A stretch of DNA of 58,401 bases, filler included, from Squatina squatina (taxonomy: Eukaryota), in the NCBI GenBank assembly GCA_031763465.1. It is 3 parts of 3 records of this genome, joined end to end, with 100 filler letters (N's around TTAATTAATTAA, not from the genome) between each part and the next. Parts side by side here need not be neighbours in the genome. Positions count along the whole stretch, not along the records: positions 24,856 to 45,706 come from JARFOE010000115.1; 2 more parts are not named here. One strand, given 5' to 3'. Positions 29,685 to 29,962 of the stretch are shown here, one piece after another (the stretch's first letter is position 1; each line of letters starts with the position of its first letter). The position numbers and the translations under genes were made by a program. The notes beneath the pieces were generated by a model. It saw nothing but the letters and a program-made list of their open reading frames with translations. It made no database searches and was not told the DNA's origin.

Positions 29685-29860
29685 CTGTTTTAAATTGCAG
29701 ATGCTGGTCAGTAGGGTTTCCGAAATTTTCCAACAGGGACAGGAACAGCAGCCCGAAAGCGTTCTGAATGCCAAACACCGAGCCGTTACACCACATGGAG
29801 GCGAACATCACCACCCAACCCCAGCCCCCTTCGGGGGGCACGAACTCGCCCTTGTCGGCG
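29685..29860 (-). CDS. SLC16A10: Monocarboxylate transporter 10 (TAT1), 3' part of first coding exon
   Basis: [57 protein letters not shown] then phase-1 donor G|gtaagg; [13 protein letters not shown] and FKT match MCT10 rather than MCT8 (TWCNGSIFGIHNS); true 5' end missing. Confidence 0.88.
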
Positions 29861-29863
29861 GCG

Positions 29864-29962
29864 GTGGCAGCGGCGGCAGCAGCCAAAACCACCAGTAAAA
29901 ACTCTAGCATTGCAGACTTGAGACTTAAAGCGAAAAAACACGCCGCAGCTTTAGGCCTGTGA
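29864..29962 (+). CDS. SHOX2: SHOX2 terminal exon, 3' part with OAR domain and stop
   Basis: [32 protein letters not shown]; expected upstream VQAQLQLD...HHHLHPH...PPFGLP segment and acceptor are absent. Confidence 0.93.

What the first reader, a model, noticed from the sequence alone, without database searches (positions are those of the whole stretch)
29685..29962. SLC16A10 exon (-) and SHOX2 OAR exon (+) fused back-to-back through one Ala-codon repeat
Seen: in gap-free sequence, MCT10 exon 1 with intact donor (29685) runs up to tcggcggcggtggcagcggcggcagcagcc (~29855-29884), which codes Ala-rich peptide on both strands, and the SHOX2 C-terminus runs out of it the other way. Each exon lacks its own 5' part. 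Known: the two genes are unlinked in human, and GCN low-complexity tracts cause assembly misjoins. Inference: probably a chimeric contig, with 29060-29855 belonging to the SLC16A10 locus. But both frames are formally rescuable. The SHOX2 antisense supplies an in-frame ATG (29910) giving [29 protein letters not shown], and a C-rich AG at 29823-29824 would splice in frame to the OAR domain. A real rearrangement giving a dual-strand coding exon cannot be excluded here.
Basis: partly seen in the sequence, partly recalled or inferred. Interest (0 to 1): 0.72.

Follow-up and report, generated by a model that had tools for sequence, protein, structure and literature searches.

The report
Assembly misjoin of SHOX2 and SLC16A10
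Half an exon of a transporter gene (SLC16A10) is joined back-to-back to half an exon of a developmental gene (SHOX2) in this draft shark genome, but related species keep both genes whole and the same draft holds other gene hybrids, so this is most likely a sequence-assembly error and not real biology.

Summary
The junction is in the sequence, but it is very likely an assembly misjoin (about 95%). The scaffold is the SHOX2 locus. In 4 of 4 runs from related species, one contig joins SHOX2 intron 4 to position 29863 with other DNA between, at about the window's spacing. MCT10-side contigs in 4 of 4 runs leave the window at 29861. No listed piece crosses the junction. The Ala tract is SHOX2's own, not a shared 30-nt repeat. 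The MCT10 start lies on a separate 708-nt contig that ends mid-exon; no reciprocal fusion was found. The assembly makes such joins elsewhere: SHOX2 exon 2 breaks into repeat DNA, and 3 of 32 homeoboxes compared are paralogue hybrids. The 'rescue' frames are by-products: Ala codons read as Ala on both strands, the AG has 1 T in 19 upstream bases, and splicing there would drop 48-60 nearly invariant SHOX2 residues. Reads of this species were not available, so a private rearrangement is not formally excluded. Earlier unchecked notes on other DNA of this genome describe foreign exons inside genes; none covers this place.

The parts
26424..26481 (+). SHOX2 exon 3 (homeodomain helix 3 and tail), intact
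   Evidence: AG/GT ends; tblastn to P0123
27411..27499 (+). SHOX2 exon 4, intact, GC-type donor
   Evidence: 100% to P0123 over 30 aa
28320..29059 (.). 740-N gap; with the foreign piece it occupies the place of the end of SHOX2 intron 4 and the 5' half of exon 5
   Evidence: the window skips 1571 nt between 28291 and 29863, relatives have 1659 (X10) and 1704 (X4, from record coordinates) other letters
29060..29215 (.). high-copy repeat at which the foreign (MCT10 intron 1) arm ends
   Evidence: 4767 candidates in the own genome, 39 further matches among 40 scored; summed contig depth above 10,000 in relatives over 29003-29206
29216..29684 (-). SLC16A10 (MCT10) intron 1, start, with GT donor at 29684-29683
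   Evidence: collinear with one 1589-nt contig of run X2 that also holds the exon
29685..29861 (-). 3' part of SLC16A10 (MCT10) exon 1, undecayed; the only copy found in the assembly
   Evidence: 0 of 39 invariant columns changed; relatives match up to 29861 and then diverge
29861..29863 (.). junction (inferred misjoin point)
   Evidence: relatives' MCT10 contigs end their match at 29861; SHOX2 contigs begin at 29863
29863..29962 (+). 3' part of SHOX2 exon 5: Ala tract, OAR motif, stop
   Evidence: relatives' contigs from 29863
29963..32771 (+). SHOX2 3' UTR and downstream DNA, the long native arm of the contig
   Evidence: 29863-30300 collinear with relatives' SHOX2 contigs; single copy for 29885-30700; beyond 30300 not compared with relatives
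29823..29824 (+). AG proposed as rescue acceptor; judged chance
   Evidence: 1 T in the 19 upstream bases, against 10-13 at four true acceptors of the two genes; one of 3 in-frame AGs
29908..29910 (-). antisense ATG; reverse complement of the SHOX2 Ser-Ile codons, judged a by-product
   Evidence: SHOX2 residues invariant in 17 of 17 entries

Best explanation
The junction is most likely an assembly misjoin, and the animal likely has an ordinary intact SHOX2 and an SLC16A10 exon 1 elsewhere. Shown: the 5' half of SHOX2 exon 5 and about 38 codons in the middle of MCT10 exon 1 were not found in the assembly, and the join lies at the local G+C peak (0.72). Inferred: poor short-read coverage of these GC-rich exon parts left two dead ends, both GCN/NGC-periodic. 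They were joined on a short or imperfect overlap, either by the assembler (my estimate about 0.6) or by a chimeric library molecule (about 0.35). The MCT10 arm stops after about 800 nt at its first high-copy repeat. The scaffolder then placed the contig by its 2.9-kb SHOX2 arm and sized the N gap so that gap plus foreign arm equal a normal intron 4 plus exon 5. Because a join on Ala codons keeps codon phase, and GCN repeats read as Ala on both strands, open frames across the joint arise without selection.
For: (1) 4 of 4 runs of relatives (organisms B, C, D, E; 3 studies) have one contig that holds SHOX2 intron 4 and the sequence from 29863 on, with 1659-1708 other letters between. (2) 4 of 4 runs (A, A, F, B; 3 studies) have an MCT10 contig that matches up to 29861; in three the loose end is shown and encodes ordinary N-terminal sequence; in X2 the record goes on for 873 letters. 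No listed piece in either call crosses the junction. (3) The distance from the end of exon 4 to 29863 is about 2360 nt in the window and about 2090 (X2) and 2480 (X4) in relatives (from record coordinates). (4) The MCT10 promoter and first 50 codons are on their own 708-nt contig, ending mid-exon. (5) SHOX2 exon 2, on contig C302036, also breaks mid-homeodomain into an old repeat copy only 68-90% like other copies. (6) 3 of 32 homeoboxes compared switch from one paralogue class to another at helix 3; in one, the longest possible shared word is 20 nt (inferred from paralogues). (7) Neither gene fragment is decayed: 0 of 39 and 0 of 35 invariant columns changed in MCT10 exons 1 and 2; SHOX2 96% (exon 1) and 100% (exon 4, C-terminus) to sawshark. 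(8) The two genes lie on records of different length in Mustelus (148.8 vs 159.8 Mb) and Hemitrygon (179.6 vs 210.7 Mb). (9) Shox2 loss is embryonic lethal in mice (PMC4309068, search listing).
Against: No reads of this species could be laid: the best share of words was 0.18, so the direct test is missing. The missing halves were not found in the assembly, so an intact allele of this species is not shown. Relatives show no exact shared word at the joint, so the overlap mechanism is not shown; this species' MCT10 allele is unknown there. An MCT10 exon-6-like piece lies on the same scaffold 2.1 Mb away in the same orientation, and the only exon 5 copy found is decayed (13 of 63 invariant columns changed), so MCT10 DNA has likely been duplicated or moved in this lineage. 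The homeobox hybrids share a conserved word of 20-42 nt at most and may be an easier kind of misjoin.
Confidence: 0.95

Rival explanations
1. A real but private rearrangement in the sequenced animal, on one allele or in some cells: a piece of SLC16A10 was copied or translocated into SHOX2 exon 5 by microhomology-mediated repair. It would make a null SHOX2 allele, not a functional exon, and the assembler kept this path because the intact GC-rich path was poorly covered.
For: The joint is gap-free. A near-blunt joint also fits end-joining repair. Decayed or displaced MCT10 pieces exist in this genome. An earlier unchecked note reads another foreign exon in this genome as a real insertion (e1-9217033).
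Against: It needs a second independent hit in SHOX2 exon 2 and ignores three homeobox hybrids in the same assembly. No reciprocal fusion was found. The gap plus foreign arm match the normal distance. The exon-6-like piece sits about 90 kb from an Eph receptor gene, and SAM-decarboxylase exons (a neighbour of SLC16A10, recalled) map to other scaffolds.
Confidence: 0.035
2. A fixed rearrangement in this lineage that created a dual-strand coding exon: SHOX2 would splice from exon 4 into the AG at 29823-29824, and MCT10 would start at the antisense ATG 29910 from a new promoter in the SHOX2 3' UTR.
For: Both frames are open across the joint. Both fragments are undecayed. The MCT10 donor is intact.
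Against: The AG has 1 T in 19 upstream bases, against 10-13 at true acceptors. The splice would replace 48-60 residues that are identical in 16 of 17 shark and ray entries. The normal MCT10 promoter and start still exist. The new N-terminus would be hydrophobic and signal-peptide-like, a poor fit to a cytosolic transporter N-terminus (inference). MCT10 exons 2 and 4 are not in the window or the flanking 10-kb stretches searched. All 8 run-layings (7 different runs, 6 organisms) show the ordinary arrangement for the side they cover.
Confidence: 0.015

Closest known systems
Chimeric contigs of short-read assemblies (PMC4133164, passages read: low or uneven coverage and short shared sequence give fragmented or chimeric contigs)
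   Same: The join is at a coverage-poor, low-complexity exon. Paralogue hybrids occur in the same assembly.
   Different: That paper treats RNA-seq and metagenome assemblies. Here the two genes are unrelated and on opposite strands, and no exact shared word is shown.
False gene losses in GC-rich exons of short-read vertebrate assemblies (PMC9516821, abstract and outline read)
   Same: GC-rich exon parts are missing, including the middle of a first exon; intact genes look broken.
   Different: Here the lost part is replaced by foreign sequence from another gene, not only left as a gap.
Chondrichthyan SHOX2 (P0121 Heptranchias, P0123 Pristiophorus)
   Same: Exon order and spacing, invariant C-terminus with OAR motif, RS-rich exon on the opposite strand upstream (RSRC1-like, name recalled).
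   Different: The 5' half of exon 5 and the 3' half of exon 2 were not found in this assembly.
Chondrichthyan SLC16A10/MCT10 (P0002 Pristiophorus)
   Same: Exon 1 3' part 93% identical, donor and intron 1 conserved, N-terminus present on another contig.
   Different: About 38 codons of exon 1 and all of exon 3 were not found; the only exon 5 copy found is decayed.
Natural opposite-strand overlapping coding exons and templated sequence insertions (recalled; the latter also named in note e1-9217033)
   Same: Two open frames on opposite strands; foreign genomic DNA inside a gene.
   Different: No conservation in relatives, no usable splice or start signals, no read support available.

Membership tests
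Short-read assembly misjoin | Each side continues into other, ordinary sequence in independent data | tested here: met
   Relatives' contigs, (other species, not the same one)
Short-read assembly misjoin | No or very few reads of the same sample cross the joint | not testable with these tools
   No listed run held half of the stretch's words
Short-read assembly misjoin | The same assembly shows other joins of this kind | tested here: met
   SHOX2 exon 2; 3 of 32 homeoboxes
Short-read assembly misjoin | An exact shared word between the two parents at the joint | tested here: inconclusive
   Relatives show 0-1 nt of overlap within loosely similar GGC-periodic DNA; this species' parents are not assembled
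Natural dual-strand coding exon | Arrangement conserved in related species | tested here: not met
   No listed piece crosses the joint in 7 different runs of 6 organisms; long tables were cut
Natural dual-strand coding exon | Credible splice acceptor for the SHOX2 reading | tested here: not met
   1 T in 19 upstream bases against 10-13 at four true acceptors; a crude count, not a trained model
Natural dual-strand coding exon | Transcripts of both strands across the overlap | not testable with these tools
   No RNA holder of this species listed
Reciprocal translocation or inversion | Reciprocal junction (MCT10 5' half joined to SHOX2 5' half) | tested here: inconclusive
   The MCT10 5' contig ends about 38 codons short of the break; the SHOX2 5' half was not found
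SHOX2 last exon | OAR motif and position after exons 1, 3, 4 on one strand | tested here: met
SLC16A10 exon 1 | Closer to MCT10 than MCT8, with conserved exon end | tested here: met

The most novel reading that the evidence does not exclude
A fixed rearrangement in this shark lineage fused SLC16A10 exon 1 and SHOX2 exon 5 back to back, so that one Ala-coding stretch is translated on both strands and both genes work through new splice and start signals.
Probability: 0.015. Interest if true: 0.8.

Novelty: not a real feature. Interest (0 to 1): 0.05.

Why it matters
If the fusion were real it would be a rare case of two conserved vertebrate genes rebuilt to share one coding stretch on opposite strands. 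The evidence says it is very likely not real. The practical value is a warning about this assembly: gap-free, in-frame hybrids between unrelated or paralogous exons occur in it (3 of 32 homeoboxes compared, and two breaks in SHOX2 alone). Any 'captured exon', 'fusion' or 'novel homeobox' seen in it needs support from reads or relatives first.

Tried and rejected
Pattern search for the Ala tract with 1 mismatch found only the window's own place: no second copy to serve as a shared repeat. Searches for the missing SHOX2 exon-5 5' half and the MCT10 exon-1 middle gave only weak unrelated matches, E 0.129 and 0.974. MCT10 exon 3 was not found. No intact second copy of exon 5 or exon 6 was found. 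No RNA holder listed and no run with half of the words: no evidence either way. I tested whether scaffold C115 holds the true MCT10 locus: SAM-decarboxylase exons map to C4, C203 and a small contig; Brix and SEFIR searches were uninformative; in 220 kb around the exon-6-like piece the 140 longest of 149 ORFs gave Eph-receptor domains and one weak PARP14 match only, and no further MCT10 exon. Rejected, though that region is mostly N. The letters upstream of 29863 in relatives' SHOX2 were cut from both loose-end tables, so the microhomology could not be read from that side. N gaps lie shortly before the foreign half in all three homeobox hybrids, but many normal loci have nearby gaps too, so I gave this no weight. 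L092 was considered as a fourth hybrid and left out as doubtful. Literature: 3 papers hold both gene names (listing only); none has them in title or abstract. No supplements were read.

Full report
What is there. The window is a pack of three stretches. The finding lies in the second, in gap-free DNA 29060-32771 after a 740-N gap; window 29060 is G000:C115:8377139. The minus strand holds the 3' part of SLC16A10 (MCT10) exon 1. It matches human MCT10 at E 1e-21 and MCT8 at 7e-15, and sawshark MCT10 at 93%. The exon ends at 29685 with a GT donor. The plus strand holds the SHOX2 C-terminus with the OAR motif and stop at 29960-29962. The closest named proteins are from sharks.

Whose locus it is. 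C115 carries SHOX2 exon 1 at 8369347, exon 3 at window 26424-26481 and exon 4 at 27411-27499, all on the plus strand and in order. An RS-rich exon on the opposite strand lies upstream (the name RSRC1 is recalled). The scaffold is therefore the SHOX2 locus and 29060-29861 is foreign. That piece is true genomic MCT10 DNA: one 1589-nt contig of run X2 matches both the exon and the intron part. It ends in a high-copy repeat at 29060-29215. Its unique part occurs once in the assembly.

Relatives keep both genes whole. No listed run held more than 0.18 of the stretch's words, so all runs laid are taken as other species. In one search (X1, X12, X11, X2; organisms A, A, F, B), each of the 4 runs has an MCT10 contig whose match stops at 29861. 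The three loose ends shown read as ordinary Ala/Ser/Pro-rich N-terminal codons; 29 loose-end rows were not shown. In one search (X2, X3, X4, X10; organisms B, C, D, E; 3 studies), each of the 4 runs has one contig holding SHOX2 intron 4 and the sequence from 29863 on. X10 has 1659 other letters and X4 1704 (from record coordinates) where the window skips 1571; X2 and X3 have 1708 where it skips 1967. The tool states for every run that no listed piece spans the whole stretch, and no listed piece crosses 29861-29863; the piece tables were cut. So the gap plus the foreign arm fill almost exactly the space of the normal intron end and 5' half of exon 5. The two genes are on records of different length in Mustelus and Hemitrygon, which I read as different chromosomes.

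The joint. MCT10 identity stops at 29861 and SHOX2 identity starts at 29863. The SHOX2 protein around the Ala run is identical in 17 of 17 shark and ray entries, and the window departs from it just left of 29863. The Ala tract is therefore SHOX2's own. This species' own MCT10 allele is unknown at that spot, so a longer shared word cannot be excluded. G+C peaks at 0.72 in 29810-29859, against 0.38 for the stretch.

The missing halves. The MCT10 promoter and first 50 codons are on a 708-nt contig, C971964, that ends inside the exon. About 38 codons between it and the window piece were not found. The 5' half of SHOX2 exon 5 was not found. No reciprocal fusion was seen. Loss of GC-rich exon parts is a known bias of short-read assemblies (PMC9516821, abstract).

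The assembly does this elsewhere. SHOX2 exon 2 is on unplaced contig C302036 and breaks after 18 homeodomain residues into other DNA. After about 25 unassigned bases that DNA is an old dispersed repeat, 68-90% like other copies, which does not look like a fresh insertion. As a control I took the 51 matches, left out 4 that are SHOX2 exons on C115, and aligned 47. In 32 of them helix 3 is in frame with the rest, and I compared these half by half; the other 15 have an intron or break before it. Three of the 32 change class at helix 3. L060 has a left half like L072 (0.76) and a right half identical to L064 and L066. L089 has a left half like L037 (0.91) and a right half that matches TTF-1/Nkx2-1; it lies 10 kb from L084. 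L097 has a TLX-type left half (0.88 to L085) and a right half like L069 and L081 (0.92); it lies 13 kb from L081. The labels Nkx1, Nkx2-4 and Hmx are recalled. For L097 the flanking amino-acid differences limit the exact shared word to 20 nt (inferred from paralogues). L092 is a doubtful fourth. Chimeras at low coverage and short shared sequence are a described failure of de novo assembly (PMC4133164, passages). Gaps of exactly 10 and 100 N plus long variable gaps, with 1.15 million contigs, suggest short-read contigs ordered on a reference (inferred).

The rescue readings. A run of GCN codons reads as Ala on the other strand too (follows from the code), and a join made on Ala codons keeps phase, so open frames are expected. 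The AG at 29823-29824 is one of 3 in-frame AGs. It has 1 T in the 19 upstream bases, against 12, 10, 10 and 13 at four true acceptors of these genes (the SHOX2 exon 3 row was offset by two bases and is left out). Using it would replace 48-60 residues that are identical in 16 of 17 shark and ray entries and differ by two residues in one. The antisense ATG is the reverse complement of SHOX2's Ser-Ile codons. It would give a hydrophobic, signal-like start (inference), while the normal MCT10 start still exists. Shox2 loss is embryonic lethal in mice (PMC4309068, search listing), and the SHOX2 exons show no decay. A fixed double disruption is therefore implausible.

What speaks against. There is no read test in this species, and no intact allele of it is shown. 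An MCT10 exon-6-like piece lies on C115 at 6.249 Mb, same strand, and breaks off into other DNA. The only exon 5 copy found has 13 of 63 invariant columns changed, and exon 4 has 3 of 32; no intact copies of exons 3, 5 or 6 were found. A decayed partial duplicate of MCT10 is likely, so MCT10 DNA has moved in this lineage. However, the exon-6 piece lies near an Eph receptor gene, SAM-decarboxylase exons are on other scaffolds, and exons 1 and 2 are undecayed. I take this as a separate matter.

Print and earlier notes. Three papers hold both gene names (listing only), none in title or abstract; I found no report of a fusion in that one search. Notes on other DNA of this genome describe foreign or mixed exon pieces (e1-9217033, e1-9907661) and a truncated exon (e1-9502701). 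I did not test them; they may be misjoins of the same kind.

Verdict. Assembly misjoin 0.95; private rearrangement in the sequenced animal 0.035; fixed dual-strand coding exon 0.015. Not a real feature; interest 0.05.

Noticed in passing
L030 / G000:C302036:1939: SHOX2 exon 2 breaks mid-homeodomain into about 25 unassigned bases and then an old repeat copy; the contig is unplaced, and C115 has a 2228-N gap where exon 2 belongs.
   Followed up: yes
L060 (G000:C19:1508884), L089 (C115:12276077), L097 (C189:5852912): Homeoboxes that switch paralogue class at helix 3 (Nkx3-type/Msx-type, Nkx1-type/Nkx2-1-type, Tlx-type/Hmx-type; some labels recalled). Likely misjoins that could be mistaken for new homeobox genes.
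   Followed up: partly
L092 (G000:C192:12304403): Hox11-type homeodomain with a tail unlike its paralogue L093; a possible fourth hybrid or a divergent gene.
   Followed up: no
L018 (G000:C348909), L020 (C424886), L021 (C115:6248996-6249133): MCT10 exon 5 copy with 13 of 63 invariant residues changed but splice sites kept; exon 4 with 3 of 32 changed; exon 6 piece truncated. Likely a decayed partial duplicate; intact copies of exons 3, 5 and 6 were not found.
   Followed up: partly
L065, L067, L088: Single odd residues at otherwise conserved homeodomain positions, possibly base errors from low coverage.
   Followed up: no
L078 (G000:C100:9237131): Hox1-type homeodomain with several changes in helix 3, near a Hox3-type box (L082); possibly a degenerate Hox1 copy.
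   Followed up: no
window 27500-27505: SHOX2 intron 4 begins with GC rather than GT.
   Followed up: no
L032 (G000:C115:8895450) and L124-L125 (C115:6.34-6.36 Mb): A Pax3/7-type homeobox (label recalled) about 0.5 Mb past SHOX2, and an Eph receptor gene 2 Mb before it, on the same scaffold.
   Followed up: no
L011:5026-5241 (minus): RS-rich exon about 11 kb upstream of SHOX2 exon 1 on the opposite strand, likely RSRC1 (recalled), the usual head-to-head neighbour.
   Followed up: no
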